A stretch of DNA of 64,000 nt, from positions 32,001 through 96,000 of IMG/VR virus record IMGVR_UViG_3300008952_000004; one strand, given 5' to 3'. This document shows positions 1-13,578 of this stretch, piece by piece; the first letter of the stretch is position 1, and each line of letters opens with the position of its first letter. Source of the DNA: a virus. The position numbers were made by a program, and so were the translations under genes. The notes under the pieces were generated by a model. That model was not told where the DNA came from. It ran no database searches and was given only the letters and a program-made list of their open reading frames with translations.

Positions 1-513
1 ATAAAAAAACATAAGTGGTATAATATTTGTTTTGTACCAGAATTTCTTAGAGAAAGATGTGCTTCTATTGATTTTGTCGAGAACCATGATGTATGTATAA
101 TCGGCACAAATGAAGATTGGATATATGATAAGGTAGTATCCGCCCATGGAAAGTACCCGCAGACCTTTTGTCGCTTGACTCCGACAGAAGCTGAATTGTC
201 TAAGTATTTTAATAACATTTATAATGCAACTCTGATCACATTTGCAAATAGTTTTTTTGAAGTGTGTGAGGCAGTCGGCGCCGATTATACTAATGTAAAA
301 AATGCGATTACAACTCGAACACATATTCAGGATATATATCTTGATTGTAATAAAAACTTTAGGGGCTTTGGCGGCATGTGCTTACCCAAGGATACTAAAG
401 CTATAGCCGCACTTTGTAAAGAAAGAAACATCAGTGTGAACTTTTTCAAATCACTTTTGGAAGAAAATAACAAATATAAAATAACAGTGTTTGAAGGGAT
501 GAGGTTAAAATGA
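1..513 (+). CDS. ugd: UDP-glucose/GDP-mannose dehydrogenase family protein, 5'-truncated by the window
   Basis: Frame 1 is open from base 1 (IKKHKWYNICFVPEFLRE...). Contains the PEFLRE motif, EAELSKYFNN and GFGGMCLPKD (catalytic Cys). Confidence 0.9.
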   Translation: MKKHKWYNICFVPEFLRERCASIDFVENHDVCIIGTNEDWIYDKVVSAHGKYPQTFCRLTPTEAELSKYFNNIYNATLITFANSFFEVCEAVGADYTNVKNAITTRTHIQDIYLDCNKNFRGFGGMCLPKDTKAIAALCKERNISVNFFKSLLEENNKYKITVFEGMRLK

Positions 514-1238
514 GTAGAGAAAAAAAGATGAAAATTTTGATTCCGTTAGCAGGCGCCGGTTCTCGATTCTTTAAGGAAGGGTATACAGATCCGAAACCTC
601 TTATTGATGTTGCAGGAAAGCCAATGATACGTCGGGTTATTGAAAATATTGACATGCCAGAAATGGAACACATCTTTATTGTTCAAAAGTCACACATTGA
701 AAAGTATCCTAAAATTAAAGAATATCTTAGTGGCTGCGTCCGACGGGCTACGCTAGTTGAGATTGATGGTTTGACTGAAGGGGCAGCTTGCACAACCTTA
801 TTAGCAGAAGAATACCTAGATGACAGTCCGCTCCTTATTGTGAATTCGGATCAATGGGTTGACTGGGTACCATCACACTTTGTTAACTTTTGCAAAGATT
901 TGGACGGCTGCATTCCTTTCTTTTTATCAGACAGTCCAAAGCACTCATACTCTAGAGTGAACTACGAAACGGGTTTGGTAACTCAGGTCGCAGAAAAGCA
1001 GGTTATAAGTAATTTTGCCACAGTCGGGATATATTATTGGAAAAGTGGAAAAGAATATATCGATTGTGTTAAAGAGATGATTCGCAAAGACATCAGATTC
1101 AACAATGAATTTTACATTTGTCCCGTCTATAACATTTTGATAAATTCTAGAGGCGGGCAGGTAAAACCTTATCCAGTGTTTGAAATGAGGGGAATGGGAA
1201 CTCCCCAGGAACTAGAAAAATTTATAAATAAACTTTAA
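510..1238 (+). CDS. Sugar-phosphate nucleotidyltransferase (NTP_transferase fold)
   Basis: N-terminal LIPLAGAGSRF..GY..PKPLI signature; EGAACT, IVNSDQ, AEKQVIS, ATVGIYYW. ATGA overlap with ugd. Confidence 0.88.
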   Translation: MSREKKMKILIPLAGAGSRFFKEGYTDPKPLIDVAGKPMIRRVIENIDMPEMEHIFIVQKSHIEKYPKIKEYLSGCVRRATLVEIDGLTEGAACTTLLAEEYLDDSPLLIVNSDQWVDWVPSHFVNFCKDLDGCIPFFLSDSPKHSYSRVNYETGLVTQVAEKQVISNFATVGIYYWKSGKEYIDCVKEMIRKDIRFNNEFYICPVYNILINSRGGQVKPYPVFEMRGMGTPQELEKFINKL

Positions 1239-1252
1239 TTAAGGAGAAATAG

Positions 1253-2443
1253 ATGCGCTTGTTTAAGAGCCTTAAAGAAATTGATTTAGACAAATATATT
1301 ATTTGCACTTATTATTTGCAATCAAGCACTACGCTTCGTGACGCGGCTTGGGCTCTGGCAATCGGACAAAGTGTGGGCAATCCAAATGTAAGAAATCGCT
1401 GGGAAACAGATAAATTGTTTGAAGAACATTCTTGTCTGATCGTTGGGACAGAGGAATCCCTTGCATCCGTCAAAGCGGGCACAATCCAAATCGCTTTTCC
1501 TATTGTGAACACGGATTTCAGAACTGATGGCGTTTCACATCTACTCTGTCAGTTTATGGGTGGACAAATGGACATTGATATAGTTGAAAAGTGTCATCTA
1601 AATAAAGTTGAAATACCAAAAAGAATAGAACAGAAATATTTTCTTAAACCAAAATATGGAATTGACGGTATTAGAAAGTTTACTGGCGTCGGCGAAAAAC
1701 CACTACTTGGCGGCATCGTCAAGCCAAAAATTGGTGTAGATAGCAGGGTATTATTAGAGATGGTCAAAGAGATGGTTCAGGGCGGAGTGAACTTCATTAA
1801 AGAGGACGAAATAATGTCAAACCCTGCTTGTTGCCCGATAGAAGAAAGAGTGCCTCTGATCATGGAATATATTAAAGATAAAAATGTAATTTATTCAGTT
1901 TGTGTTAATAGCGACCCGGCACAGGTAATTGAACGGGTCAAAAAAGTTCACAGTATGGGAGCTAATTCGATCCATATAAATTTTTGGAGCGGCTTGGGAG
2001 TATATAAATCAATTCGAGAATTGGACTTACCCTTATTCATACATTTTCAAAAAAGCGGCGACAAAATTTTAACAAACAAAGAACACGCTTATCATATTTC
2101 TTGGGATGTTATTTGTGATTTGGCTGGACTAATGGGTGTTGATTTTATACATGCCGGTATGTGGGGTGGGTATATGTCAGACAACGAAACCTCACTTAGA
2201 CAAACATTACAAATTTTACATAATAGACAGGTGATGCCAGCGCTAAGTTGTGGGATGCATCCCGGTCTTGTGCAAGCAATTAATGAAAAGTTTGGTGTGA
2301 ATTACCTTGCCAATGTCGGCGGCGCCCTCCACGGTCATCCGAAAGGAACACTTGGCGGGGCAATGGCAATGCGGCAAGCAATCGATAATACTCCATCAGA
2401 GGAATATAATATTGCAATTGATAAGTGGGGCTTGATCAAATGA
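1253..2443 (+). CDS. RuBisCO-like protein (form IV RLP)
   Basis: IVKPKIG (K175/K177), GGVNFIKEDE (K201/D203/E204), IHAG, ALSCGMHPG, VGGALHGHPKG. Lacks equivalents of E60, N123, H294 and K334. AAGGAG RBS. Confidence 0.93.
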   Translation: MRLFKSLKEIDLDKYIICTYYLQSSTTLRDAAWALAIGQSVGNPNVRNRWETDKLFEEHSCLIVGTEESLASVKAGTIQIAFPIVNTDFRTDGVSHLLCQFMGGQMDIDIVEKCHLNKVEIPKRIEQKYFLKPKYGIDGIRKFTGVGEKPLLGGIVKPKIGVDSRVLLEMVKEMVQGGVNFIKEDEIMSNPACCPIEERVPLIMEYIKDKNVIYSVCVNSDPAQVIERVKKVHSMGANSIHINFWSGLGVYKSIRELDLPLFIHFQKSGDKILTNKEHAYHISWDVICDLAGLMGVDFIHAGMWGGYMSDNETSLRQTLQILHNRQVMPALSCGMHPGLVQAINEKFGVNYLANVGGALHGHPKGTLGGAMAMRQAIDNTPSEEYNIAIDKWGLIK

Positions 2444-2880
2444 TCGTGATTTCCCATAGGGGATATGAAAGTGGGGAAAATGATAAGTTGGAGAATAACC
2501 CTCTCCAGATAAGAAGGCTTTTGAGTATGGGCATAGATGTAGAGATAGATGTGTCATATGACGGTCGTTTTTTCCTGGGACACAATAGTGGCAAGTATGA
2601 AATCGATATTGATTTTTTAAAACAGGACGGGCTCTGGTGTCACGCAAAAGATAGTCTGGCATTTGAACTGATGCTGCAAAGCGGTGTGCACTGTTTTTGG
2701 CATCAGTGTGACGACTATACTTTGACCAGCCGAGGCATAATCTGGGCTTATCCCTCAAAAGACTTGCACAATCTGCATCAATCGGTGTTATTATTTCCAG
2801 AAAATATCCCCGGTGGATTAACAAGTGCTCAGCGGGAAAATCTTTACGCGATATGTACTGATTTTCCGTTTCTATATTAG
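2440..2880 (+). CDS. Short GDPD/PI-PLC-like phosphodiesterase-fold protein
   Basis: MIVISHRG...ENNP...DVEIDV...LGH...WCHAK...FWHQ.DDYTLTSRG.IWAYP. Start placed at the ATGA overlap with the RLP stop. Confidence 0.7.
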   Translation: MIVISHRGYESGENDKLENNPLQIRRLLSMGIDVEIDVSYDGRFFLGHNSGKYEIDIDFLKQDGLWCHAKDSLAFELMLQSGVHCFWHQCDDYTLTSRGIIWAYPSKDLHNLHQSVLLFPENIPGGLTSAQRENLYAICTDFPFLY

Positions 2881-2892
2881 GAGTAATTTTTT

Positions 2893-3633
2893 ATGAAAGT
2901 TGGAACAGTAATAACAATGTATGACGAACATCCGATTGCTCTTAAAAGCGTGACGGAAATAAAAAAAACGATACCAGATAGTACAATCATACTGGTGCAC
3001 TCAGATGATTGTCAAGAAACATCAGAATTAATAGCCCTCAAGGAGATGGTTACTGAATATATAATATTACCGGACATGTCTAAGGTGTTGACTAATCAAC
3101 AAGCACTGGGCGCCAATTGTATTGCTAGAAATTATAGTGCTGGATTTAAATCCCTTTATTCGTTGGGAAAACAATATGACCTAGTTGTGGCTTTGACAGC
3201 GGACACTCTTATAACCGACGGGGAATCATTTTCTAGGCGTCGGGAGGAAATGCTCCGCACCGAGCGTACAGCCTTGGTGTCACAGGCTATAGGACAGAAT
3301 TTCCATGCAGTAGCCAAGGATGGAAGTCGAATTGTTGAGGGTCGCCATCAGAGTCCTGAAATAACTGACTTTATGCCGCAGCTTTTTTTTCTTGACGGCA
3401 GTTTTGCAGCGAAACAAAGGGCGTTCGAAGACGTTGAAGTTACAAATCCGTATGCGTCGGAACAGTGTCTGGGCGATAACTTAGTTAATTGCTTGACAAA
3501 AGAAGATAAAACGTTCTATAATAGTGTTGGTAGATTAAACTGGTTCTCTCCTACATTCGCATATGCTTATGCAGATGGCGCGGAGTATCATGCATTGCAC
3601 GGCGGCATTCCAGCGGGAAGAGAAATAAAATGA
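2893..3633 (+). CDS. Possible GT-A/GT2-like glycosyltransferase
   Basis: N-terminal VITMYDE...IILVHSDD and YDLVVALTADT resemble the GT-A strand pattern; cluster context. No clear DxD motif. Confidence 0.4.
   Translation: MKVGTVITMYDEHPIALKSVTEIKKTIPDSTIILVHSDDCQETSELIALKEMVTEYIILPDMSKVLTNQQALGANCIARNYSAGFKSLYSLGKQYDLVVALTADTLITDGESFSRRREEMLRTERTALVSQAIGQNFHAVAKDGSRIVEGRHQSPEITDFMPQLFFLDGSFAAKQRAFEDVEVTNPYASEQCLGDNLVNCLTKEDKTFYNSVGRLNWFSPTFAYAYADGAEYHALHGGIPAGREIK
3493..3522 (+). promoter_or_regulatory. Consensus sigma70 promoter embedded in the 2893-3633 CDS
   Basis: TTGACA (3493-3498), 18-nt spacer, TATAAT (3517-3522); 108 nt upstream of the 3630 start. Confidence 0.7.
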
Positions 3634-4664
3634 AAAAAGTAATTATTACCGGTAGTCAAGGGTTCATAGGTTCTTATCTATGTACAGAATTTTTAGAAAG
3701 AGGATATGAAGTTGTGGGTATTGACAACTATTCCAAATATGGGGTGGTTAAAAGAGCACACGACAATCATCCAAACTTTTCTTTGTTTGAAATGGACATA
3801 TGTGAGCTAAATTCTAAAAAGGTGCAACCCCACCCATCATTTGCCGACGCTGATTATATTATAGCCAATGCAGCAATGATTGGCGGCATTAGTTACTTTC
3901 ACAAATATGCATACGACTTGTTGGCTACTAATGAGAGAATTTTAGCCTCGACATTTGATTTGGCTATCAGGCTTCATAAAGAATATAATTTAAAAAGAAT
4001 TCTTGTCTTGTCTAGTAGTATGGTATTCGAAAACACTAACAGATACCCAACTCCGGAGTACGAAGTGGAGACTTGCTCTCCACCCGCAAGTACATATGGC
4101 TTTCAGAAACTGGCATCGGAGTATTTTTGCCGAGGGGCTTATGAACAATATAAATTACCATATACAATTATAAGACCCTTTAATTGTGTCGGTATAGGCG
4201 AAGAAGAAGCAGTTGGCGAAGATGTCGTTATGTCGGGGAACATTAAAATGTTAATGAGCCATGTTCTCCCTGATCTGATTCATAAATCATTATTGTTAAG
4301 CCCCAACGATGCTTTGCCAATCCTTGGGGATGGTACACAGATTCGTCATTATACAAACGGTAAAGACATTGCAAAGGGGGTTAGAATTGCCCTAGAATCA
4401 GAAAAAGCAGTTAATGAGGATTTTAATATTTCATCCCCAGAGGCAACCACGGTTGCAGAATTAGCTGATCTTGTTTGGCAAAAAATTCACAATACAAAGG
4501 TTAAGTTTGAACATTGCCAGCCGTTTGAATATGATGTACAAATTAGAAGTCCGGACGTCAATAAAGCTAAAGATATTTTAGGTTTTATAACAGAAGTGAC
4601 TTTAGAGGAAAGTGTTGATGAGGTCATAGAATGGATGAGGAAACAAAATGAAAAATCTAGTTGA
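3630..4664 (+). CDS. NAD-dependent epimerase/dehydratase (extended SDR)
   Basis: ITGSQGFIG Rossmann motif, SSSMVFE, catalytic YGFQK, IRPFNCVG. Confidence 0.92.
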   Translation: MKKVIITGSQGFIGSYLCTEFLERGYEVVGIDNYSKYGVVKRAHDNHPNFSLFEMDICELNSKKVQPHPSFADADYIIANAAMIGGISYFHKYAYDLLATNERILASTFDLAIRLHKEYNLKRILVLSSSMVFENTNRYPTPEYEVETCSPPASTYGFQKLASEYFCRGAYEQYKLPYTIIRPFNCVGIGEEEAVGEDVVMSGNIKMLMSHVLPDLIHKSLLLSPNDALPILGDGTQIRHYTNGKDIAKGVRIALESEKAVNEDFNISSPEATTVAELADLVWQKIHNTKVKFEHCQPFEYDVQIRSPDVNKAKDILGFITEVTLEESVDEVIEWMRKQNEKSS

Positions 4665-4995
4665 TAAAATTATTAAAGAAGCAATACATAAATATGATGG
4701 AAGCTATACTTTGGATAACCCATTTGAAGAAATGATGAGCTTTGGGGAGTTGGTTGACCGATTATCAATTGTTAATTTCAAACTTTTTACTCTAAAAGAT
4801 GAGGTTATGAAACGTCCCGAAGATGACGACTTTAAGTCTTGGGCATCCGTTGAAGACGTTAAACTCGTTAAAGAACGTTCCCGACTTAAAAGATGCATTG
4901 ATGAGAAGATGGTTGCTATGATTACGCGAATCTCAGATGGAGACGCAAGTGGAGGATTTAATCCAGAAGTTAAAAAATATGGGGATAAAATATGA
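4648..4995 (+). CDS. DUF4254/DUF6165-like small helical protein
   Basis: SFGELVDRLSIVNFKLF...ERSRLKRCIDE resembles the family recalled from glycan loci. Confidence 0.5.
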   Translation: MKNLVDKIIKEAIHKYDGSYTLDNPFEEMMSFGELVDRLSIVNFKLFTLKDEVMKRPEDDDFKSWASVEDVKLVKERSRLKRCIDEKMVAMITRISDGDASGGFNPEVKKYGDKI

Positions 4996-5933
4996 AAATT
5001 TTAGTCGTAGGCGGCGCCGGTTACGTCGGTGGACATATGGTTGACCTCTTATCAAAGAATCATGATGTTACGGTATACGACCTTCTCTTATTCGAGAAGA
5101 GGTTTATGAAGCGAGTTAATTTTATTTATGGAGATGTGAGGGACACAGAAAAGCTAGGTACCATAATTAATGATTACGGTACTGTGGTGTGGCTAGCAGG
5201 TATGGTCGGCGACGGCGCATGCGCTGTAAATCCTGCCTTGACAACAGCAGTTAATTATGATTCAGTTAAGTGGCTTGTTGATAACTATAATGGAAGGATC
5301 GCTTTTCCATCAACTTGTTCAATCTATGGTATTAACAACGAACTTATTAATGAAGAGGCAAAACCAAATCCTTTGTCACTTTATGCCGCTACAAAACTTA
5401 AAGCAGAAAAATATATTCGAGCGAATGCGTCTGGTGAATATATTATCTTCAGGCTTGGTACTCTGTTTGGTTTAGGTGACGAGCATTCGCGTATACGACT
5501 GGACTTAGTAGCTAACATTCTTTCTATGCGCGCAGCTAAGGGACTTCCATTGACAGTATTTGGCGGCGAACAATGGCGACCCTTATTACATGTTAAAGAT
5601 GCTGCCCGAGCCTTTGTGTATGCAATAGAGAATAATGTTGCAGGTTATTATAATCTTTCGTACAAAAATTATACGATACAAAGTTTGGCAGAAGAAATAT
5701 CAGATTATATACCGAATACTGAGATTAAATATGTAGATATGCCGTTTGAGGATTTAAGAAATTACAAAGTTAATAATTCTAAGTTCTCGGAATATGATTG
5801 GAAACCCAAATATTCCCTTAAAAACGGGGTCGAAGAAGTGTATAATCTTATTATCCAACAAAGAATTAAGGATACAAACGATATGATATATTCAAATGCT
5901 AGATATATAAAGGAAATCGAGGGAGACAAATAA
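4992..5933 (+). CDS. Extended SDR resembling NDP-sugar C4-dehydrogenases (Cj1427-like) or epimerases
   Basis: VGGAGYVG, LAGMVGDGAC, STCSIYG, YAATK, FRLGTLFG, RLDLVAN, DLRNYKV. Confidence 0.88.
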   Translation: MKILVVGGAGYVGGHMVDLLSKNHDVTVYDLLLFEKRFMKRVNFIYGDVRDTEKLGTIINDYGTVVWLAGMVGDGACAVNPALTTAVNYDSVKWLVDNYNGRIAFPSTCSIYGINNELINEEAKPNPLSLYAATKLKAEKYIRANASGEYIIFRLGTLFGLGDEHSRIRLDLVANILSMRAAKGLPLTVFGGEQWRPLLHVKDAARAFVYAIENNVAGYYNLSYKNYTIQSLAEEISDYIPNTEIKYVDMPFEDLRNYKVNNSKFSEYDWKPKYSLKNGVEEVYNLIIQQRIKDTNDMIYSNARYIKEIEGDK

Positions 5934-6355
5934 TGGGTATTCAATTGATTGAAGGTGGAATGTTCGCTGATGATCGCGGCAAATTGAGGTTTGTGAATGG
6001 GTTTGATTTTTCTAATGTGAAAAGATTTTATCAAGTGGAAAATCATCGTCAAGGGTTCATACGGGCTTGGCACGGACATGTAAAAGAGGGGAAGTATGTT
6101 TATGTGGCTAGCGGTACCGCTCTGGTTGGCGCCGTCCCACTGGACGATGATACTGTCACACCTAAGAAATATGTTTTAACTTCTGAAAAGCCACAGGTTT
6201 TGTGGATTCCTCCGAATCACGCTAATGGGTTTATGAATCTTGAAGAAGGTACAGTTATATTGTTCTTCTCAACTTCTACCTTAGAAGAGAGTAAGGGGGA
6301 CGATATTAGATTTCCTTATGACAAGTGGAACATTTGGGAGGAGGATTATCGATAA
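5933..6355 (+). CDS. RmlC/WxcM-like cupin, NDP-sugar 3,5-epimerase family
   Basis: DDRGKLRF, RAWHGH, LWIPPNHANGF. Confidence 0.88.
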   Translation: MGIQLIEGGMFADDRGKLRFVNGFDFSNVKRFYQVENHRQGFIRAWHGHVKEGKYVYVASGTALVGAVPLDDDTVTPKKYVLTSEKPQVLWIPPNHANGFMNLEEGTVILFFSTSTLEESKGDDIRFPYDKWNIWEEDYR

Positions 6356-6645
6356 TGACTTTTAAACAATACTATGATTATTATTTAAGCTTACACCAAA
6401 ACAAATGGACCCGTCGCTTACACGTTATGGGGCAGGCGGCAACAGTCTTATTTGTTATTTTGTGTGTATCTAAAGGCGCTTGGTTAGCACTCTTATTTGC
6501 CCCTTTTGTTGTGTATCCTTTCGCTTGGAGCGGTCATTTCTTTTTTGAGAAAAATATACCGGCTGCTTTTTCTAAACCCATCTGGGCTAAAGCGTGTGAT
6601 TGGCTAATGTTAAGAGATATTATTTTTGGGAGAATAAAATGGTAA
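6355..6645 (+). CDS. DUF962 / Mpo1-like membrane protein
   Basis: YYLSLHQNKWTRRLH, two hydrophobic segments, PFAWSGHFFFEKNIPA. Start at the TAATG overlap. Confidence 0.85.
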   Translation: MTFKQYYDYYLSLHQNKWTRRLHVMGQAATVLFVILCVSKGAWLALLFAPFVVYPFAWSGHFFFEKNIPAAFSKPIWAKACDWLMLRDIIFGRIKW

Positions 6646-7469
6646 AAGTACTAATTCTTGGAAGCACCGGCATGCTCGGCAATGCTGTTGGCAAGTGGTT
6701 TTCTAAACAGTCTGACCGGTATGAAGTGACATTCACTCACAGGGATTATGATTTAGCTAGCACATATTATGAAGACAAAAATCTTCTTCATTTTGATTGT
6801 TTGGAGGATAAGTTAGTTGATCTTGATTTATCTGGGTATGATTATGTCATTAATTGTATTGGTACAATTAAACCATTTATGTCCTCAAACCCACTATCTG
6901 CAATTAAAATAAATTCTGTTTTTCCCTGGACACTGGCTTGTGTCTGCAAGGGCGCAGGCGCAAAGCTGATTCACATTACAACTGATTGCGTATATTCAGG
7001 GGCGGTAGGACAGTATACTGAAGATGATGAGCACGATGCGCGAGATGCATATGGAAAAAGTAAGTCTCTCGGCGAACCAGATAACTGTATGGTACTGAGA
7101 ACGAGTATTATTGGCGAAGAAGTTCATAAAAACGCTAGCTTGATTGAGTGGGTAAAAAGTCAACGAGGCAACACAGTCAATGGCTATATTAACCACGACT
7201 GGAATGGAATCACAACCACTCAGTATGCGAAGACCTGCGACTATATCATTTCGAACGATATGTATGTTGAGGGTACGTACCACGTGATGTCGCCGAAACC
7301 AGTCAATAAATATGAGCTTGTTACTCTGCTCGGACAGAAATATAATTTAGATCTAACGGTCAATGAATTCGAAGCATCGATTAGAGTTGATCGCACACTT
7401 GGAACTGTAAAGAGTTTGTGTGGGGATTTGAACATACCATCCATCCAACAACAAATAGCGGAGATGTAA
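6639..7469 (+). CDS. rmlD: dTDP-4-dehydrorhamnose reductase-like protein
   Basis: ILGSTGMLG, VINCIG, IHITTDCVYSG, YGKSK, LRTSIIG, WNGITT. Confidence 0.85.
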   Translation: MVKVLILGSTGMLGNAVGKWFSKQSDRYEVTFTHRDYDLASTYYEDKNLLHFDCLEDKLVDLDLSGYDYVINCIGTIKPFMSSNPLSAIKINSVFPWTLACVCKGAGAKLIHITTDCVYSGAVGQYTEDDEHDARDAYGKSKSLGEPDNCMVLRTSIIGEEVHKNASLIEWVKSQRGNTVNGYINHDWNGITTTQYAKTCDYIISNDMYVEGTYHVMSPKPVNKYELVTLLGQKYNLDLTVNEFEASIRVDRTLGTVKSLCGDLNIPSIQQQIAEM

Positions 7470-7471
7470 AG

Positions 7472-7666
7472 GTGAATTTAGATTTATCAAAGCAAGAATT
7501 AACAGTACTCAGAAACCACTTAGCGAAGGAGTTGAAATATTTTTATCAAACTCCCACTGAGTGGGATTTTTGGAAAGAAACTTGCCATTTAGAAGAAATG
7601 GACTTAATCTTAAAAAAGATCGATTATCATTTAGATTTAATGAAAAAACATACAGGAGAAAAATAA
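7472..7666 (+). CDS. Hypothetical protein, 64 aa
   Basis: GTG start just after the rmlD stop; TAATG coupling to the next gene. Confidence 0.5.
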   Translation: MNLDLSKQELTVLRNHLAKELKYFYQTPTEWDFWKETCHLEEMDLILKKIDYHLDLMKKHTGEK

Positions 7667-7869
7667 TGAAATTATCAGATCAAGCAATTACTTGCCTTAT
7701 GGGCGCTTTACAAAAATGTATTTTAGAACAAACAGATATCACAAACCTTTTGAGGAATTTTGATTTTGATAAGGCTCCGGAAAATAAAAGGTGGGGTGGG
7801 AACGGCGCCCTAGTGGTTACAAATCCGCCTACAATCCAGATGCAAGTACCACAAAAAGAAGATAAATAA
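7666..7869 (+). CDS. Hypothetical protein, 67 aa
   Basis: AGGAG RBS; TAATG overlaps at both ends. Confidence 0.7.
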   Translation: MKLSDQAITCLMGALQKCILEQTDITNLLRNFDFDKAPENKRWGGNGALVVTNPPTIQMQVPQKEDK

Positions 7870-8129
7870 TGCCAGAGTACGCTTACAAGTGCAAATCTTG
7901 TGAGATAGTGTTTGAAATCTATCACTCAATAAAAGAGAAGTTGGAGGATTGTGATCACTGTGGAGAAAATTCTTCGTTAGAGCGAATCCCCTCTTTACCA
8001 TTAATCTTAAAAAGAAATAATAATAATGGTATAATGGGAAAGCCCGGAGAGATAGTGAAAGACTTTATATCTGACGCAAAAGAAGAAATGAAAAGAGAAA
8101 AGAAAAGACTCTCTGAGAGGGAAAAATAA
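7869..8129 (+). CDS. FmdB-family zinc ribbon protein
   Basis: MPEYAYKCKSC...DCDHCG...LERIPS signature. Confidence 0.88.
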   Translation: MPEYAYKCKSCEIVFEIYHSIKEKLEDCDHCGENSSLERIPSLPLILKRNNNNGIMGKPGEIVKDFISDAKEEMKREKKRLSEREK

Positions 8130-8319: not shown

Positions 8320-8633
8320 TGCTTGTTTTAGTTTCTTTTCTGTTAATCATTAGTTTGGCTTTAAACATTATATTGGTGTGGTATGTTCGACGGTTGATAC
8401 AAAGTATGCTACCCCTGCATGATGATGCGACGGAAGTTCAAGGAGTGTTGCGAGACTTTTTAGAACACGTACAAGGGGTATATGAACTGCCTCTGTTCTA
8501 TGGCGATCCGACTTTGAAAGCCCTACTGGAACATTCCAGAGAAGCAACTAATCAATTGGAGAGCTTTCGAAGCAGCTTTGTATTTGAAGAAGAAAAAAAG
8601 GAAATAGAAGAATATGACGAAGAAGGGACGTAG
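8319..8633 (+). CDS. Membrane-anchored hypothetical protein
   Basis: N-terminal TM segment; ELPLFYGDPTLKALLEH; TGATG coupling. Confidence 0.7.
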   Translation: MLVLVSFLLIISLALNIILVWYVRRLIQSMLPLHDDATEVQGVLRDFLEHVQGVYELPLFYGDPTLKALLEHSREATNQLESFRSSFVFEEEKKEIEEYDEEGT

Positions 8634-9306
8634 CCGTAAGGGAAATTATTATTTTACCCAAGAGCATGAAGATGCCGTGATTAAGTATGCCATATCGGAC
8701 AACCGCCGCGAAAAAGAGCAAATTTATATACAATATATTGGACCAGCGTTTGGAGAAATGGTTGATAAAATTGTATACACTTATAAATTTACCACTCTTC
8801 CAAATATTGATGTACTTAAAGACGAATGTAAAATATGGTTGACCACAATCCTTGATAAATATGATCCGAACAAAGGGTCGAAAGCATTTTCATATTTTAG
8901 CGTAATTACGAAAAATTGGTTTATTCATAAAGTCAAAAAACATTCTACTCGTCTCCGCCGAGAAATTCAACTCGATAAAGTTACTAAAGAGGTTGAACAA
9001 CAACACATTTCCAATACTAATTTTTACGATGAGCGCCGAGAGGAGCAAGAGTTTTGGCAATACTTGTGGAGCGAAATTGAAGTATGGGAAGAAGAACTTT
9101 TAAAGCCAAACGAACAAAAAGTTCTAAATGCGGTTAAACACCTTTTATCTAATTCAGAAGATATAGAAATTTTTAATAAAAAAGCTATTTATCTATATCT
9201 ACGGGAGTTAACAGACTTGAACACAAAACAGGTGGTCAATAATCTTAACAAGCTCAGGACCAGATATAGGAGTTTTAAAAACAGATGGATGGACGGAGAA
9301 ATATAG
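8614..9306 (+). CDS. Phage late sigma factor (T4 gp55-like, sigma region 2)
   Basis: LDKYDPNKGSKAFSYFSVITKNWF matches the region 2 FDPxK...AFxYFT pattern; C-terminal helix-turn-helix-like segment. Confidence 0.75.
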   Translation: MTKKGRSRKGNYYFTQEHEDAVIKYAISDNRREKEQIYIQYIGPAFGEMVDKIVYTYKFTTLPNIDVLKDECKIWLTTILDKYDPNKGSKAFSYFSVITKNWFIHKVKKHSTRLRREIQLDKVTKEVEQQHISNTNFYDERREEQEFWQYLWSEIEVWEEELLKPNEQKVLNAVKHLLSNSEDIEIFNKKAIYLYLRELTDLNTKQVVNNLNKLRTRYRSFKNRWMDGEI

Positions 9307-9608
9307 AGAATCTAGAGTCTTATCTAGAAGAAGCAATAAAGAACATTCGTGACGATCGAGCAATTACATCAGCTTTGTTAGCAGAAGCTGTTTCATATAT
9401 TAAGAAGAATGAAAGCCACCATAAAGATGTTGGACCGGTTGCAGCAAAATATGTAGAAACACTTCAACGCTCGAACGAACAATTAGTAAAAATTTCCAGC
9501 CTTTTACAAAAAAAAGAGCAAGCCAGACATCAGGGCTTATCTGAAGAAGACAGAAAAGATATTTTTGATTTGATTGGTAATGGCGAAGGAACAGCCGATG
9601 AGCGGTAA
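9285..9608 (+). CDS. Helical hypothetical protein, possibly terminase small subunit-like
   Basis: The H..VG.VAAKYVETLQRSNEQLVK...LQKK pattern loosely recalls T4 gp16-like proteins. Confidence 0.35.
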   Translation: MDGRRNIENLESYLEEAIKNIRDDRAITSALLAEAVSYIKKNESHHKDVGPVAAKYVETLQRSNEQLVKISSLLQKKEQARHQGLSEEDRKDIFDLIGNGEGTADER

Positions 9609-12600
9609 AACCCCGCCAACTACCGGTGCAAAAGGAAGTGAAACTCCACCCGTTGGCGCCCGGTCAGAACAAAAGCCCCCCACTGCGGGCGCACCATCCG
9701 GCGTTGCTACAGATCGTGTTTCACACGACTTTGCACCGGGAGAACTCAACGACCTTCCTGTACCTGACTTTATGCCCAGATATGAGGGTGGTAAAGATGA
9801 TGTGTTTAGCGCTTGGCGCAAGATGGCAAGAGATTTTTATACTCCAGATACATTTTCCAAGCTTGGTCCAATGAGGGGGGTCGTTTTAAGAATCGAGGAA
9901 GTTCCACACAAACCTGTTGAAGAAGGGTTCATGGGTTGGACATGGATGGACTTTTTGGATATGGAACAGGCGACAGTTAAAAAGATGCGAGTGCGGATCC
10001 CTGAGATACATTCGATGATTCCTTGCCCCGCAACTATCGGAAAAGAAGCCACAGAAGCAGACAACAAAATAATAGATTTATATGATTTATTTCCACCCAA
10101 AGATCTTGATATTAACGCAGATGCAGTTGTTGAGGGAGATATCGTTTGGGTGGATTATGGAAATAAACTAAATTGGAAGGACCCAGTTTACCTCGGCGCA
10201 GTTAACAAAAAACCATCAGCGGGCGCAGGCGGCATGCCCCCTGGTGGCGCCAATGCCCACGCCAATGGGTGCGGAGGGCAATACCAAAGAACCTCTACCA
10301 CTGCCACTGGAGGCGGCGGAACTGCAATGCCAGCAGCCAACGCTCCGCAGCAACCATATCAAGGGCTCCCCAGAATAGCAAGAGTAGATTTGGAAAAAGG
10401 ACAATGGGGGGACATTAGCAATGCAGCAGCATCAGCCACTGGCGGCTCAAGTGCTACAATGTCGCTTGACGCAAAATGGGTGGTGAATGAAGCAGCGCCC
10501 TACGGAAAGGGTACATATAATGGTTTTAAAAAGGCAGCAAAAGCCTGTCCATATCAACTTAGAGTATATTATGGACATATCCCCGGCAACGGAGAGGCAG
10601 ATAAAAAGAATAGACCCAATGCGCGAACAAGCATAGTCGCTGCCCCTTGGTATTTTGATGCGACCCAACCTTGGGAATTAATATACTTTTTTCACGGGCT
10701 GGGAGGATTTCAATCAAAATCTTTTTCAAATAGAATTATTCCTAATATAAAAAAGCTGATTAAAGAAAAAAGAAATTTTGTTTATGTTAAACCACAATTA
10801 GGTCACGGAGCTTTCGGTCACCGGGATGGACAAACTGATTCTTTTAATCCGGAAAAACACCCTGGTCGCGGAGGGGATTTTGCAATTTACCATAACAATA
10901 TTATAATGACAATTCAGAAACACATTACGTCAACAAAGACTCCCATAGCTAAAACGATGCAAGTGTCTATGTACGCTTGGTCCGCAGGCGGCGCCACAAT
11001 TGGTCGAATTGCCGCATCCGGTGCCATGGCAAAAATAAAGCCTAGCAGAATCTTTTTTGCTGATGCCGAATACCTTTGGGGATATGGAGATGTAAAAGAT
11101 GCCGATGGCAATAGTCAAGGCAAGGCTACTTCTGCACTTACGGCCGTTTGGAAGGGGTATGTTAAAGATAATCCTAAAGTGTGGTTAACTTGCATGACTG
11201 GGACTAAGAAAGTAGATGGATACACAAAAAGAAAATTTAATAGTATAAAGAAAAAAAATGATATATCAAAAAGACCGGTGTATTATTGGGCTACTGGAAA
11301 AAGTCATGGTTGGTGTGGAAAAAACGCCCTCTTTCTTATCTGCCCAGAACACAAGAGTAGAACTTTAAACCCACCTTCCGCCACCACAGCGGCTAAAGCC
11401 GCAGCGCCACCAAAAGTAGAAAGTAATGATAAACAAGCAGAGACAGAAGAAAACAAGAATACAGGTGTAAAACCAGAAGAGGAAAAGACAGGAGCCGAAG
11501 AGGACCAGGGCTTTGTACCCAAGCTTCCACCACAAAAAGAAACGACTGAGACTCCAAAGGAAAACAAACCAAAAAAGTCAGCTAGCGAAAAGCCAAAGGA
11601 TAAAGAGGAGAAAACGTCTGGCGGTGGTATTATGGGGAAGATGAAAGCTGCGGTTTCCGACGCTAAAGACAAGGCAGTGACTTCTGCTAAGGTCGCCTCG
11701 GCAAAAAAGAAATGGACTGTCGTTCCCTCAGGTCCGGACACCTCTTGGAAAGAGAATCGTGTACGAATTAGACATTATGGCGGAACAATTAAAAATAAAA
11801 AAGATAAATTATTGGCTAAAATTAAGGGTCCAAATGAGCGCGGGTATCTGAAGGCACACTTATTAGTTGTCAAGCGTTATCAAGCTATGAAAGCCGCCGC
11901 TGCTGCCGCTGGCGTACAAATGAAGGTCGTATCCGGATGGCGAAAACATAAATACAAATCATTCGAAGATTACGAAGCAAAAATGCTAGCCAAAGGTTAT
12001 GCATCAGCAAAAGCAGCTAGCAAGTGGATTGCCTTTAATTCTCCTCATGAGACGGGAATGGCTCTGGATATTAATTCAGTTGGTGAAGAAAAAGGGATGA
12101 TTTGCCAGAATCGCGCCGAAACATCTGGACGCAATAAAAACTCTGTTTTGGGAAAGTGGTTAATAGCAAATGCTTGGAAGTTTGGATTTGCGCCATATAA
12201 GAACGAGACTTGGCACTGGGAAGTTAGATTACCGGTTTATTCTTGGGTTACAGGTGAGGAATTTACCGACAACTTTGCTGTTCGAGTTACGAAAGTAGGT
12301 CCCAAAGTAAAAGGGTTTACTGGTTCTGGCGAATTTGGAAACACTAATATAGCGCCGGGAGCACAAGCAGGCGGTGGCAGTGTTGGCTCAGCTACCGGCG
12401 CCGGTCCTTGCATTCATGTACCATCCAATGTAGCTGGGATGGGCGAGCCATTACAGGTAACCAATGCTGCGCCAGTCTCAGGGCTTGGGGATAAATTAGT
12501 AATGGGCACACCGGGATCTGACGCGGTAGGCGACGATAAATATTTACGTAAATTAGTAGCTTTCTGTGTACACGAAACTGCCGGTTGGCCAACGAATATT

Positions 12601-13578
12601 CGTCAGAGAAAAAGAAATCAGGATTCCTATGCAGATAAAGGGGGGCATCCCTGTGGCGTGCACTTTTGGGGCACTTCAGATGGCGGCATATTACAAACAA
12701 CCCATCCTGCAAAGCGCATATGGCATGCCCAGGGCGGTTCAATGTTTTCTACATCGATAGAGACTTGTACCATGGGTCCGACTCATCCACGTTATCACGG
12801 AATGATAAAATATTTTGCCAATATGGGATTTCATTTTGTTAGCACGACCAAAGGTAAAGGGGATATTCTTACAGATGAAGGTTGTACTGCTGGCAACGCT
12901 AAAACTTGGCAAGTTATGATGCTTCCGACTCCCCAAATGCAGGAATCGCTCTATAAACTAATATACGGCTTGTCTAAAAACCCTCCGTCAAATGAAGGAA
13001 CTAAATGGAGCTATGGCGGCAAATCAGGTAAAACAGAAATTAATATTCCGATGGCTTTTCCAGCCGTTAACGCAAATGAAGGAAAAATGTGGTGGGGACC
13101 TTGGTATGGAAAGCCGGGGAGTGTTCATTGGGGCAAAGCTGATTTCGCCGCGAACAGTAGTGAGTGGTTTAAGAAAAATCAACCCCCCGGTGTTTTCTGT
13201 CACTGGAACGTGGGTCACCACGCCGATGGATGTATGGGGGTATTTTATACTATGGCACGTGCCCTTGGTATGAATTCGTCCGATGCTTTTTATGCGATGG
13301 TTGGTGCTGTCTGTACTACAAAATATGATTCGACTGTTAAAAACTTTTGGACCCCTCTTCCAAAAGGCGCTGACGGCAAAGAATTAATAAAAAAGGGGAA
13401 AGCCAAGTATCCCTGGCCATTGGATGCTAAGACATTTGTCGACACCCCCGGTGTCACTAGCCAGCCGCTTGCCATATGGAAAAATTTCCCACACAAGTGG
13501 AAAAAAGTAAAAACAGCGTGGGAACAACTAAAGGAAGAAAAGAAAGTACATTTTGGCGATTTTGATAACCCCACATAA
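9598..13578 (+). CDS. gp5-like baseplate hub / virion lysin with alpha/beta-hydrolase, M15 peptidase and Amidase_2 domains
   Basis: OB-fold-like N-terminus (GVVLRIEE...VRIPEIH...GDIVWVDY); FHGLG and WSAGG; SGWR, SPHETGMALD and ETWHWE; VHETA, WHA, SIE and CHWNVGHHADG. Start chosen at 9598 (AAGGA RBS). Confidence 0.8.
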   Translation: MSGKTPPTTGAKGSETPPVGARSEQKPPTAGAPSGVATDRVSHDFAPGELNDLPVPDFMPRYEGGKDDVFSAWRKMARDFYTPDTFSKLGPMRGVVLRIEEVPHKPVEEGFMGWTWMDFLDMEQATVKKMRVRIPEIHSMIPCPATIGKEATEADNKIIDLYDLFPPKDLDINADAVVEGDIVWVDYGNKLNWKDPVYLGAVNKKPSAGAGGMPPGGANAHANGCGGQYQRTSTTATGGGGTAMPAANAPQQPYQGLPRIARVDLEKGQWGDISNAAASATGGSSATMSLDAKWVVNEAAPYGKGTYNGFKKAAKACPYQLRVYYGHIPGNGEADKKNRPNARTSIVAAPWYFDATQPWELIYFFHGLGGFQSKSFSNRIIPNIKKLIKEKRNFVYVKPQLGHGAFGHRDGQTDSFNPEKHPGRGGDFAIYHNNIIMTIQKHITSTKTPIAKTMQVSMYAWSAGGATIGRIAASGAMAKIKPSRIFFADAEYLWGYGDVKDADGNSQGKATSALTAVWKGYVKDNPKVWLTCMTGTKKVDGYTKRKFNSIKKKNDISKRPVYYWATGKSHGWCGKNALFLICPEHKSRTLNPPSATTAAKAAAPPKVESNDKQAETEENKNTGVKPEEEKTGAEEDQGFVPKLPPQKETTETPKENKPKKSASEKPKDKEEKTSGGGIMGKMKAAVSDAKDKAVTSAKVASAKKKWTVVPSGPDTSWKENRVRIRHYGGTIKNKKDKLLAKIKGPNERGYLKAHLLVVKRYQAMKAAAAAAGVQMKVVSGWRKHKYKSFEDYEAKMLAKGYASAKAASKWIAFNSPHETGMALDINSVGEEKGMICQNRAETSGRNKNSVLGKWLIANAWKFGFAPYKNETWHWEVRLPVYSWVTGEEFTDNFAVRVTKVGPKVKGFTGSGEFGNTNIAPGAQAGGGSVGSATGAGPCIHVPSNVAGMGEPLQVTNAAPVSGLGDKLVMGTPGSDAVGDDKYLRKLVAFCVHETAGWPTNIRQRKRNQDSYADKGGHPCGVHFWGTSDGGILQTTHPAKRIWHAQGGSMFSTSIETCTMGPTHPRYHGMIKYFANMGFHFVSTTKGKGDILTDEGCTAGNAKTWQVMMLPTPQMQESLYKLIYGLSKNPPSNEGTKWSYGGKSGKTEINIPMAFPAVNANEGKMWWGPWYGKPGSVHWGKADFAANSSEWFKKNQPPGVFCHWNVGHHADGCMGVFYTMARALGMNSSDAFYAMVGAVCTTKYDSTVKNFWTPLPKGADGKELIKKGKAKYPWPLDAKTFVDTPGVTSQPLAIWKNFPHKWKKVKTAWEQLKEEKKVHFGDFDNPT

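What the first reader, a model, noticed from the sequence alone, without database searches (positions are those of the whole stretch)
1253..2443. Phage-encoded RuBisCO-like protein with a non-carboxylase active site
Seen: KPKIG, KEDE, IHAG, SCG and GG motifs retain the carbamylated Lys, the Mg ligands and the P1 phosphate site. By eye, E60 is G, N123 is G, H294 is Q, R295 is K and the loop-6 K334 is Y. Known: these residues are needed for RuBP carboxylation, and form IV RLPs instead perform enolase, isomerase or transcarboxylase chemistry (MtnW in methionine salvage; OiaX-type in apionate catabolism). Inference: this is not a CO2-fixing gene. No methionine-salvage neighbours are visible, so it may be an RLP clade working in sugar biosynthesis, which is unusual for a phage.
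Basis: partly seen in the sequence, partly recalled or inferred. Interest (0 to 1): 0.85.

Follow-up and report, generated by a model that had tools for sequence, protein, structure and literature searches.

The report
Phage RuBisCO-like enzyme in sugar-activation module
A 190-kb marine tailed phage carries an intact RuBisCO relative that cannot fix CO2 and is tied, across phages, bacteria and tiny archaea, to a sugar-activating enzyme and a miniature phosphodiesterase in surface-sugar gene clusters, so it probably prepares an unusual activated sugar, a role never shown for this enzyme family.

Summary
ORF 1253-2443 (+) encodes an intact 396-aa RuBisCO large-subunit homologue in a complete 189.7-kb myovirus-like IMG/VR genome. 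The carbamylated Lys, Mg ligands, K175/K177, H327 and the P1 phosphate loops are kept. E60, N123, H294, R295, H298 and K334 are replaced by G, G, Q, K, D and Y. These replacements are near-invariant in 218 relatives, so this is a distinct, selected active site rather than decay.

It is not a carboxylase, not MtnW and not OiaX. It falls in a well-supported separate clade that matches the published 'form IV-like' phage/Beckwithbacteria clade (Jaffe et al. 2019), whose function is unknown.

- A 4EVW-type nucleotidyltransferase lies within 3 kb in 73 of 76 loci and is fused to the RLP in both orders.
- A 150-aa GDPD-like phosphodiesterase lies nearby in 47 of 76 loci.
- The same module sits in surface-glycan islands of SAR11, Legionellaceae (next to LicD), CPR bacteria and DPANN archaea.

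My best reading is an enolisation-type isomerase that shapes a phospho-keto-sugar for nucleotide activation. The exact chemistry is untested. This scan has reached the same cassette reading before on other DNA (at least 36 genomes).

The parts
1..513 (+). 3' part of a 265-aa NDP-sugar dehydrogenase-like gene (genome 31716-32513). It lacks the C-terminal UDP-binding domain.
   Evidence: Pfam UDPG_MGDP_dh central domain, E 2.3e-21. It aligns only to residues ~52-306 of 450-aa sugar dehydrogenases.
510..1238 (+). Nucleotidyltransferase (NTPtr, 242 aa) of the 4EVW-like sugar-phosphate type. It is the obligate partner of the RLP.
   Evidence: Pfam NTP_transferase 1.1e-10. phrog_3980 1.4e-59. A profile search against the PDB gives 4evw at 2e-37, followed by sugar-1-P nucleotidyltransferases. 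A homologue lies within 3 kb of the RLP in 73 of 76 loci. It is fused to the RLP in both orders.
1239..1252 (+). Intergenic spacer holding the AAGGAG ribosome-binding site for the RLP gene.
   Evidence: Read directly from the sequence.
1253..2443 (+). RuBisCO-like protein (396 aa, P0001) of the 'form IV-like' clade, with a non-carboxylase active site.
   Evidence: Tree.
2440..2880 (+). Miniature GDPD-like phosphodiesterase of about 146 aa. The listed ORF starts at GTG 2425, but the likely start is ATG 2440, which forms an ATGA overlap with the RLP stop codon.
   Evidence: phrog_34507 3e-17. Invariant H11, R12, E23, N24, E40, D42 and H53. The only PDB sequence hits are GDPDs, best 7e0v at E 0.0064. 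The AF2 model has pLDDT 93.3. Foldseek top hits are GDPDs, best E 8e-4. The start codon is read from the sequence. A homologue lies within 3 kb of the RLP in 47 of 76 loci.
2893..3633 (+). orf246, unknown function, possibly a GT-A-like glycosyltransferase. It is not a conserved part of the module.
   Evidence: No Pfam, NCBIfam or PHROG hit. No homologue in the related loci. The only lead is from the Atlas: a cluster in which 22% of members carry Glycos_transf_2.
3630..4664 (+). SDR-type NDP-sugar epimerase/dehydratase (344 aa); island context.
   Evidence: Pfam Epimerase 3e-35 and GDP_Man_Dehyd 8e-28.
4992..5933 (+). Second SDR-type NDP-sugar epimerase/reductase (313 aa); island context.
   Evidence: Pfam Epimerase 2.6e-33.
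5933..6355 (+). RmlC-like cupin (140 aa); island context.
   Evidence: Pfam dTDP_sugar_isom 1.9e-10.
6600..7469 (+). RmlD-like reductase (289 aa), the last gene of the glycan island.
   Evidence: Pfam RmlD_sub_bind 2.2e-18.

Best explanation
The gene encodes a working, non-carboxylating member of the RuBisCO superfamily.

Shown:
- It keeps the parts RuBisCO uses to bind Mg2+ through a carbamylated lysine, to pull a proton off a keto-sugar (enolisation), and to hold the phosphate next to the carbonyl (the P1 site).
- It has replaced the residues needed for CO2 addition, hydration and C-C cleavage, and the residues of the second phosphate site. The replacement set is family-invariant: G38, Q39, N43, P44, G104, Q266, K267, D270, Y307 and C333.

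Inferred: it binds a mono-phosphorylated keto-sugar and isomerises or epimerises it through an enediolate.

Shown by comparative genomics: it is one step of a tightly packed three-gene module made of a nucleotidyltransferase, the RLP and a mini GDPD-like phosphodiesterase.

Inferred: the RLP acts as the substrate-shaping enzyme. It would fill the slot that a beta-phosphoglucomutase-like HAD domain fills in paralogous nucleotidyltransferase fusions. The nucleotidyltransferase then links the product to a nucleotide. The resulting activated unit is used by the transferases of the phage's ~16.6-kb glycan island (genome 22810-39469) to decorate a surface glycan of the infected cell or the virion.

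The order of the steps, the nucleotide used and the role of the phosphodiesterase are not resolved.
For: - Fold and residues.
- The replacement residues are conserved in 204-218 of 218 relatives, which argues for a selected new active site.
- The family is monophyletic (support 0.999) and separate from representatives labelled by NCBIfam as MtnW, form III and OiaX-like.
- In the search of 1.84 billion representatives there is a clear score gap between this family and the rest of the superfamily.
- In 76 loci (30 viral, 46 cellular) a nucleotidyltransferase homologue lies within 3 kb in 73 and a GDPD-like homologue in 47. Gene order and strand differ between loci.
- Fusions link the parts: NTPtr-RLP (P0032 and seven others) and RLP-NTPtr (P0122); GDPD-NTPtr-cupin (P0406) and NTPtr-GDPD (P0475).
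- The nucleotidyltransferase family also occurs fused to HAD_2/beta-PGM-like domains.
- The cellular context is surface glycan. Pelagibacter sp. Uisw_094 has a GT9 heptosyltransferase and a CMP-sugar cytidylyltransferase nearby. Four Legionellaceae loci have LicD next to RLP-NTPtr. Other loci have GT2, GT25 and O-methyltransferases.
- In this phage the module lies among GT4, GT2, WecB, PIG-L, formyltransferase, SDR, RmlC-like and RmlD-like genes. It has ribosome-binding sites and an ATGA overlap.
Against: - No enzyme of this clade has been assayed, so substrate, product and reaction type rest on residue logic and gene context.
- The loci were collected by similarity to the RLP and are not independent samples. 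Some 'cellular' MAG contigs could be phage contamination, although a complete Pelagibacter chromosome and Legionella, Nonomuraea and Azospirillum isolates are firm.
- The small cupin that accompanies the RLP in about 17 other loci is absent from this phage genome, so the phage module may be incomplete or may rely on the host.
- The nucleotidyltransferase resembles sugar-1-phosphate enzymes more than polyol or ketose-phosphate cytidylyltransferases. That fits poorly with the primary-carbon phosphates of known RLP substrates.
Confidence: 0.6

Rival explanations
1. The module builds a phosphodiester-linked substituent rather than a glycosyl unit. The nucleotidyltransferase would make an NDP- or CDP-activated phospho-compound from the RLP product. 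A phosphotransferase would then move 'phospho-X' onto a glycan, as happens with phosphocholine, ribitol-phosphate or the Campylobacter O-methyl phosphoramidate. This is a variant of the main reading and differs only in what is delivered.
For: - LicD, a family that transfers phospho-alcohols from CDP donors (my own knowledge), sits next to RLP-NTPtr in four Legionellaceae loci that lack the GDPD-like gene.
- In 25 of the 120 listed long proteins the GDPD-like domain is fused to a DUF7796-like domain. The Atlas model of that domain resembles sulfotransferase-containing proteins and Campylobacterota capsule proteins.
- The GDPD-like domain is fused once to an APS-kinase-like domain.
- O-methyltransferases are frequent neighbours.
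Against: - This phage has no LicD, no DUF7796-like gene and no methyltransferase of those clusters.
- The nucleotidyltransferase's nearest solved relatives are sugar-1-phosphate enzymes.
- The structural resemblance of DUF7796 comes from the Atlas only and is a lead, not a test.
Confidence: 0.25
2. The order is reversed. The nucleotidyltransferase first activates a common sugar phosphate. The RLP then enolises the nucleotide-linked keto-sugar, with the beta-phosphate held in the P1 site.
For: - Fusions occur in both orders and do not fix the direction of the pathway.
- The island holds SDR enzymes that could create NDP-keto-sugars.
Against: - No known RuBisCO-superfamily enzyme uses a nucleotide-linked substrate (my own knowledge).
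- In paralogous fusions the nucleotidyltransferase is joined to a mutase-like HAD domain, which would act before it.
Confidence: 0.1
3. The gene is an auxiliary metabolic gene for salvage or catabolism, such as methionine salvage (MtnW-like), a pentose or nucleotide salvage route as with form III RuBisCO, or acid-sugar breakdown (OiaX-like).
For: The best sequence match in the PDB is the MtnW enolase 2oej at 6.6e-36. All known RLP functions are catabolic or salvage (PMC6389311 introduction).
Against: - Scores are below all equivalog cut-offs.
- The MtnW base position is Gly.
- The phage genome has no MtnA/R15P-isomerase family gene and no PRK.
- The protein belongs to a separate clade.
- The neighbours are biosynthetic glycan genes in every lineage examined.
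Confidence: 0.04
4. The gene is a true CO2-fixing RuBisCO, or else a decaying, non-functional remnant.
For: The whole fold, the carbamylation and Mg motif and the P1 site are intact.
Against: - K334, E60, N123 and H294 are all replaced.
- The replacements are invariant across 218 relatives, which speaks against decay.
- The reading frame is intact and has a strong ribosome-binding site.
- Thousands of homologues exist.
Confidence: 0.01

Closest known systems
'Form IV-like' RuBisCO-related clade of phages and Beckwithbacteria (Jaffe, Castelle, Dupont & Banfield 2019, Mol Biol Evol; PMC6389311)
   Same: That paper describes divergent RLPs on Myoviridae-type scaffolds, including a ~200-kb phage. 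They group with Beckwithbacteria sequences and lack several canonical residues. In my tree a Beckwithbacteria MAG homologue (L041, 56% identity) falls inside the same clade, which has support 0.999.
   Different: The paper leaves the function open and does not report the link to a nucleotidyltransferase, a GDPD-like protein or glycan islands. I could not compare directly with their sequences.
MtnW/YkrW 2,3-diketo-5-methylthiopentyl-1-phosphate enolase (PDB 2oej, 2zvi)
   Same: It is the best PDB sequence match, at 6.6e-36. It shares the fold, the carbamylated Lys and Mg ligands, a mono-phosphate substrate and enolisation chemistry.
   Different: The position of the MtnW catalytic Lys (N123 position) is Gly104 here. 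Scores of 159 and 132 bits fall below the cut-offs of 409 and 513. The protein belongs to a separate clade and has no methionine-salvage genes nearby.
Form III RuBisCO (PDB 8dht, 3a12, 2cwx)
   Same: It is the best structural match (TM 0.89). K175, K177, K201, D203, E204, H327, S379, G381, G403 and G404 are shared.
   Different: E60, T65, W66, N123, H294, R295, H298 and K334 are all replaced. The score is 167 bits against a cut-off of 497.
OiaX and related RLPs of D-apionate catabolism, and the Rhodospirillum rubrum-type 5-methylthioribulose-1-phosphate isomerase
   Same: These are non-carboxylating RLPs that move carbonyls or carboxyl groups on phospho-keto-sugars. This is the kind of chemistry proposed here (my own knowledge, and the PMC6389311 introduction).
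   Different: The OiaX model scores 115 bits against a cut-off of 700. The OiaX-like representative P0243 lies in another clade. Those enzymes work in catabolic or salvage pathways, not next to a nucleotidyltransferase.
Two-step polyol or ketose-phosphate activation pathways (TarI/TarJ for CDP-ribitol; AbpA/AbpB for CDP-arabinitol via CDP-xylulose)
   Same: A sugar-phosphate-modifying enzyme is paired with a nucleotidyltransferase to make an activated unit for a surface polymer. This is an analogy from my own knowledge and was not tested.
   Different: The modifying enzyme in those pathways is a reductase, not a RuBisCO-fold enzyme. The nucleotidyltransferase here is closer to sugar-1-phosphate enzymes.

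Membership tests
RuBisCO large-subunit superfamily (Pfam PF00016) | Significant match to the catalytic-domain model, and the two-domain fold | tested here: met
   112 bits against a cut-off of 30.1. The model has pLDDT 94.8 and TM 0.89 to 8dht and 3a12.
Bona fide RuBisCO (forms I-III) | The carboxylation, hydration and cleavage residues K334, E60, N123 and H294, and the P2 phosphate site residues R295 and H298 | tested here: not met
   These positions are Y307, G38, G104, Q266, K267 and D270, and they are invariant in the family.
Bona fide RuBisCO (forms I-III) | Score above the NCBIfam cut-offs (TIGR03326, NF003252, NF010002) | tested here: not met
   167 against 497, 152 against 438, and 78 against 489.
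Bona fide RuBisCO (forms I-III) | Supply of RuBP (phosphoribulokinase or R15P isomerase) and, for form I, a small subunit | tested here: not met
   The phage genome has no PF00485, PF01008 or PF00101 match. The host's complement is unknown.
MtnW / YkrW enolase | Score above the equivalog cut-offs | tested here: not met
   159 against 409 (NF007095) and 132 against 513 (TIGR03332).
MtnW / YkrW enolase | Catalytic Lys at the N123-equivalent position (K98 in Geobacillus, from my own knowledge of Imker et al. 2007) | tested here: not met
   In the 2oej alignment the Gly-Lys of MtnW faces G103-G104 here.
MtnW / YkrW enolase | Methionine-salvage gene neighbours | tested here: not met
   The neighbours are glycan genes. 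The genome has no IF-2B/MtnA family gene.
OiaX 3-oxo-isoapionate-4-phosphate decarboxylase | Score above the equivalog cut-off | tested here: not met
   115 against 700.
'Form IV-like' phage/Beckwithbacteria clade (Jaffe et al. 2019) | Phage (myovirus-type) origin and grouping with Beckwithbacteria sequences, apart from the other RLPs | tested here: met
   Phage hallmark genes are present. The clade that includes the Beckwithbacteria locus L041 has support 0.999.
'Form IV-like' phage/Beckwithbacteria clade (Jaffe et al. 2019) | Direct clustering with the published sequences | not testable with these tools
GDPD / PLC-like phosphodiesterases (for orf 2440-2880) | Catalytic H-R, the E..D metal site and a second His | tested here: met
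   H11, R12, E40, D42 and H53 are invariant in 23 homologues and align with the GDPD motif.
GDPD / PLC-like phosphodiesterases (for orf 2440-2880) | Full-length family match and fold | tested here: inconclusive
   There is no Pfam hit. The PDB profile search gives E 0.0064 over 50 residues only. Foldseek top hits are all GDPDs, but with TM 0.41-0.54 and E 8e-4. The protein is about 150 aa, against about 240 aa for typical GDPDs.
Sugar-phosphate nucleotidyltransferases (PF00483) (for orf 510-1238) | Match above the Pfam cut-off, with the G-x-G-x-R and K-P motifs | tested here: met
   42 bits against a cut-off of 21.2. G15, G17, R19 and K29 are conserved. 4evw matches at 2e-37.

The most novel reading that the evidence does not exclude
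This clade would be the first RuBisCO-fold enzyme with an anabolic role outside carbon fixation. It would make a so far undescribed nucleotide-activated keto, branched or rearranged sugar, or a phospho-sugar substituent, for surface glycans. It would work within a modular system of nucleotidyltransferase, mini-phosphodiesterase, an optional cupin and the RLP. That system is spread among marine and freshwater phages, SAR11, Legionellaceae, CPR bacteria and DPANN archaea. Phages would use it to re-decorate the host surface or the virion.
Probability: 0.45. Interest if true: 0.8.

Novelty: new variant of a known kind. Interest (0 to 1): 0.62.

Why it matters
Every RuBisCO-like protein with a known function works in salvage or catabolism. 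A clade that feeds a nucleotidyltransferase in glycan biosynthesis would add a new functional class to one of the most studied enzyme superfamilies. It would also bear on how the enolisation scaffold was recruited to new chemistry.

The clade is abundant. The word-indexed search returned 2,780 homologues, and the family is found in SAR11 surface-glycan islands and on many ~170-215-kb phages. Its product could therefore be a common but unknown component of marine cell surfaces and a factor in phage-host recognition.

The question is directly testable. The genes are small and soluble. Natural fusion proteins exist. Culturable carriers are known, including three Legionella species, Nonomuraea rosea and Azospirillum oleiclasticum.

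Tried and rejected
- Complex prediction of RLP with the nucleotidyltransferase, 1:1 with alignments: no verdict (score 0.00). This is not evidence either way.
- The look-up of sequencing runs: only marine DNA metagenomes hold the stretch and no RNA holder is listed. This gives no evidence on expression.
- blastn of window 1-8000 and tblastn of the RLP against 50,697 deposited phage records: no match. No isolate phage could therefore serve as a reference.
- Literature searches combining RLP with nucleotidyltransferase, cytidylyltransferase, nucleotide sugar, polysaccharide or SAR11: no paper assigns a function to this clade. The Tabita 2007 review, which defines the IV-GOS clade, is not held, so a possible identity with IV-GOS could not be checked.
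- Search for the small cupin, the DUF7796-like protein and the methyltransferase families of other loci in this phage genome: none found.
- orf246 against the conserved 247-aa neighbour family: unrelated.
- Profile of the 247-aa neighbour family against the PDB: nothing meaningful.
- Pfam scans of conserved neighbours in DPANN and Bacteroidota loci: mostly no hit.
- Cyanophage identity: no psbA. The nearest terminases are from Flavobacterium phage immuto (46%) and Microcystis phage Mel-JY01 (44%). The host remains unknown.
Full report
**What is there.** The window is positions 32001-96000 of a 189,713-bp IMG/VR virus record that CheckV rates 100% complete. All large ORFs run on the + strand. 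A large terminase (54940-56517), a portal protein (56537-58429) and a baseplate wedge protein (22101-23924) identify a myovirus-type tailed phage. Its terminase is only 46% identical to the nearest isolate, Flavobacterium phage immuto. The genome has no psbA, so the host is unknown.

ORF 1253-2443 is open and encodes 396 aa. AAGGAG lies 8 nt upstream of its ATG. It matches Pfam RuBisCO_large at 4.3e-32. The AlphaFold2 model is confident (pLDDT 94.8) and superposes on form III RuBisCO with TM 0.89 and on the MtnW enolase with TM 0.86.

**Active site.** HMMER alignments to two bona fide RuBisCOs (8dht, 2cwx) and to MtnW (2oej, 2zvi) give an unambiguous mapping.
- Kept: K175 (K157), K177 (K159), the carbamylated K201 (K183), the Mg ligands D203 and E204 (D185, E186), H327 (H300), S379 (S332), G381 (G334) and G403/G404 (G356/G357).
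- Replaced: E60->G38, T65->N43, W66->P44, N123->G104, H294->Q266, R295->K267, H298->D270, K334->Y307 and G380->C333.

By established RuBisCO enzymology (my own knowledge), the kept residues form the enolisation core and the P1 phosphate cup. The lost residues serve CO2 addition, hydration and cleavage, and binding of the second phosphate. In an alignment of 218 family members the replacement residues are themselves near-invariant: Q266 in 217, Y307 in 218, N43 and P44 in 216, G104 in 217, D270 in 204 and K267 in 209. This is therefore a different, selected active site and not a decayed one. An acidic residue at the H298 position argues for a mono-phosphate substrate (inference).

**What it is not.** The protein scores far below every curated NCBIfam cut-off:

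| Model | Score (bits) | Cut-off (bits) |
|---|---|---|
| Form III (TIGR03326) | 167 | 497 |
| MtnW (NF007095) | 159 | 409 |
| MtnW (TIGR03332) | 132 | 513 |
| OiaX (NF042437) | 115 | 700 |
| Form II (NF010002) | 78 | 489 |

The Lys that MtnW uses as its base, at the N123 position, is Gly here. The phage genome has no phosphoribulokinase, no IF-2B/MtnA-type isomerase and no small subunit.

**Place in the superfamily.** An exhaustive search of 1.84 billion representatives shows a clear gap. Full-length members of this family score about 155-470 bits. Every other RuBisCO or RLP scores 147 bits or less at about 30% identity. In a maximum-likelihood tree of 136 sequences the family is monophyletic with support 0.999. 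It is separate from clades that I labelled with NCBIfam: MtnW (P0201, P0255), form III (P0224, P0167) and OiaX-like (P0243). The clade contains a Beckwithbacteria MAG sequence alongside the phage sequences. That composition matches the 'form IV-like' clade reported by Jaffe et al. 2019, who found about 80 such proteins on Myoviridae-type scaffolds and left their function open. The gene is thus a new member of a published clade of unknown function.

**Gene context.** I fetched 30 IMG/VR loci and 49 loci from GTDB species genomes, called ORFs and clustered all neighbours. Of the 76 loci with a full RLP:
- A homologue of the upstream gene (510-1238, a nucleotidyltransferase) lies within 3 kb in 73. 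These are 30 of 30 viral loci and 43 of 46 cellular loci.
- A homologue of the downstream gene (2440-2880) lies within 3 kb in 47.

Gene order and strand vary widely between loci, so the association is maintained rather than merely inherited.

Fusion proteins join the parts in several ways:
- Nucleotidyltransferase-RLP: P0032 and seven others, 634-651 aa.
- RLP-nucleotidyltransferase: P0122.
- A triple fusion of GDPD-like, nucleotidyltransferase and cupin: P0406.
- Nucleotidyltransferase-GDPD-like: P0475.

A 107-aa metal cupin resembling small mannose-6-phosphate-isomerase-type cupins sits directly upstream of the RLP in about 17 loci. It is absent from this phage genome.

**The partners.** The nucleotidyltransferase matches the structural-genomics protein 4evw at 2e-37, and then GDP-mannose, GlmU, RmlA and heptose-1-P enzymes. 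Cytidylyltransferases for polyols come much lower. Its wider family of 6,523 hits often carries a fused HAD_2/beta-phosphoglucomutase-like domain. In those fusions the partner would be the enzyme that supplies the phosphorylated substrate. By analogy the RLP occupies that slot (inference).

The downstream protein is a roughly 146-aa miniature of the GDPD/PLC-like phosphodiesterase fold. Its residues H11, R12, E23, N24, E40, D42 and H53 are invariant. The only PDB sequence hits are GDPDs. The model is confident (pLDDT 93.3), and its top Foldseek hits are all GDPDs, though with modest TM scores. Its likely start is ATG 2440, which forms an ATGA overlap with the RLP stop codon.

In longer proteins this mini-domain is also fused to methyltransferases, a DUF7796-like domain, an APS-kinase-like domain, ribulose-phosphate 3-epimerase, GT61 and carrier-protein domains. 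It also occurs in chytrid fungi, a green alga and a giant virus. It therefore belongs to a broader glycan-tailoring toolkit.

**Where the module lives.**
- In this phage it lies in a ~16.6-kb island (genome 22810-39469). The island holds two GT4, two GT2-type genes, WecB, a PIG-L deacetylase, a formyltransferase, a truncated sugar dehydrogenase, two SDRs, an RmlC-like cupin and an RmlD-like reductase.
- In related phages the island content varies, but the three-gene core and the downstream late-sigma and baseplate genes persist.
- In the complete chromosome of Pelagibacter sp. Uisw_094 the module sits beside a GT9 heptosyltransferase, a HAD-nucleotidyltransferase paralogue and a CMP-sugar cytidylyltransferase.
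- In four Legionellaceae loci, from three Legionella isolates and a Tatlockia MAG, RLP-nucleotidyltransferase is paired with LicD and lacks the GDPD-like gene.
- Other carriers are Nonomuraea rosea, Azospirillum oleiclasticum, CPR bacteria and DPANN archaea.

**Most likely mechanism.**
- Shown: an intact enolisation core with a single phosphate cup, and obligate genomic coupling to a nucleotidyltransferase inside glycan clusters.
- Inferred: the RLP converts a phospho-keto-sugar by enediolate chemistry (isomerisation or epimerisation). The nucleotidyltransferase then activates the product, and the island's transferases use it.
- Open: whether the delivered group is a glycosyl unit or a phosphodiester-linked substituent, whether the RLP acts before or after activation, and whether the mini-phosphodiesterase supplies, edits or transfers the unit. 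The LicD and DUF7796 links hint at a phosphodiester-linked substituent.

I put 0.6 on the general reading, about 0.9 or more on 'not a carboxylase and not MtnW', and no more than 0.4 on any specific reaction type.

**Novelty and prior notes.** The phage RLP clade is published, but its biosynthetic wiring is not in the searchable literature. No homologue was found in 50,697 deposited phage genomes. Earlier notes of this scan describe the same cassette on other genomes and reach the same reading. I re-derived each point here on my own loci.
- Residue-level conservation across 218 members.
- An RLP-first fusion order alongside the NTPtr-first one.
- The GDPD-NTPtr-cupin triple fusion.
- The HAD-mutase analogy.
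- The complementary presence of LicD and the GDPD-like gene in the Legionellaceae loci.

Negative or uninformative attempts are listed under Tried and rejected.

Noticed in passing
window 1-513 (genome 31716-32513): The NDP-sugar dehydrogenase-like gene is only 265 aa. It aligns to residues ~52-306 of 450-aa enzymes, so it lacks the C-terminal UDP-binding domain and probably the extreme N-terminus. It may be a split, truncated or repurposed enzyme. The two ORFs upstream (genome 30021-30920 and 30874-31719) have no Pfam hit.
   Followed up: partly
window 9574-13578, 14556-21617, 25377-35081, 36193-39891, 47598-50756: The structural region holds very large ORFs of 1334, 2353, 3234, 1232 and 1052 aa. 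Only the first was scanned against PHROGs, and it gave only a weak tape-measure match. The two largest are unusually big for a ~190-kb myovirus.
   Followed up: no
window 8614-9306: A 230-aa protein matches the late sigma transcription factor family (phrog_234, 1.8e-6). It lies between the glycan island and the baseplate genes. Homologues at 51-62% identity hold the same position in related phages L004-L008.
   Followed up: no
P0406, P0475, P0488, P0511: The mini GDPD-like domain occurs in multi-domain proteins without any RLP. Examples are GDPD-NTPtr-cupin, NTPtr-GDPD and NTPtr-GDPD-HAD-NTPtr. One is a 1165-aa protein of a Pedinophyceae green alga. It also occurs in ~390-aa proteins of chytrid fungi and in a giant virus.
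   Followed up: partly
L004:6529-7272 and relatives (cluster 4, 18 loci): A conserved ~250-aa neighbour with no Pfam hit is often fused to the GDPD-like domain. The Atlas links it to DUF7796, and its Atlas structure resembles sulfotransferase-containing proteins and Campylobacterota capsule proteins. It may be the transferase of the system. It is absent from this phage.
   Followed up: partly
whole RLP family against GenBank phages: tblastn of the RLP against 50,697 deposited phage records found no match. Yet the family has thousands of metagenomic members and at least 30 IMG/VR contigs. All known carriers among phages therefore appear to be uncultivated.
   Followed up: yes
window 6325-6645: A 106-aa ORF between the RmlC-like and RmlD-like genes has a hydrophobic core and looks like a small membrane protein. 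It was not analysed.
   Followed up: no
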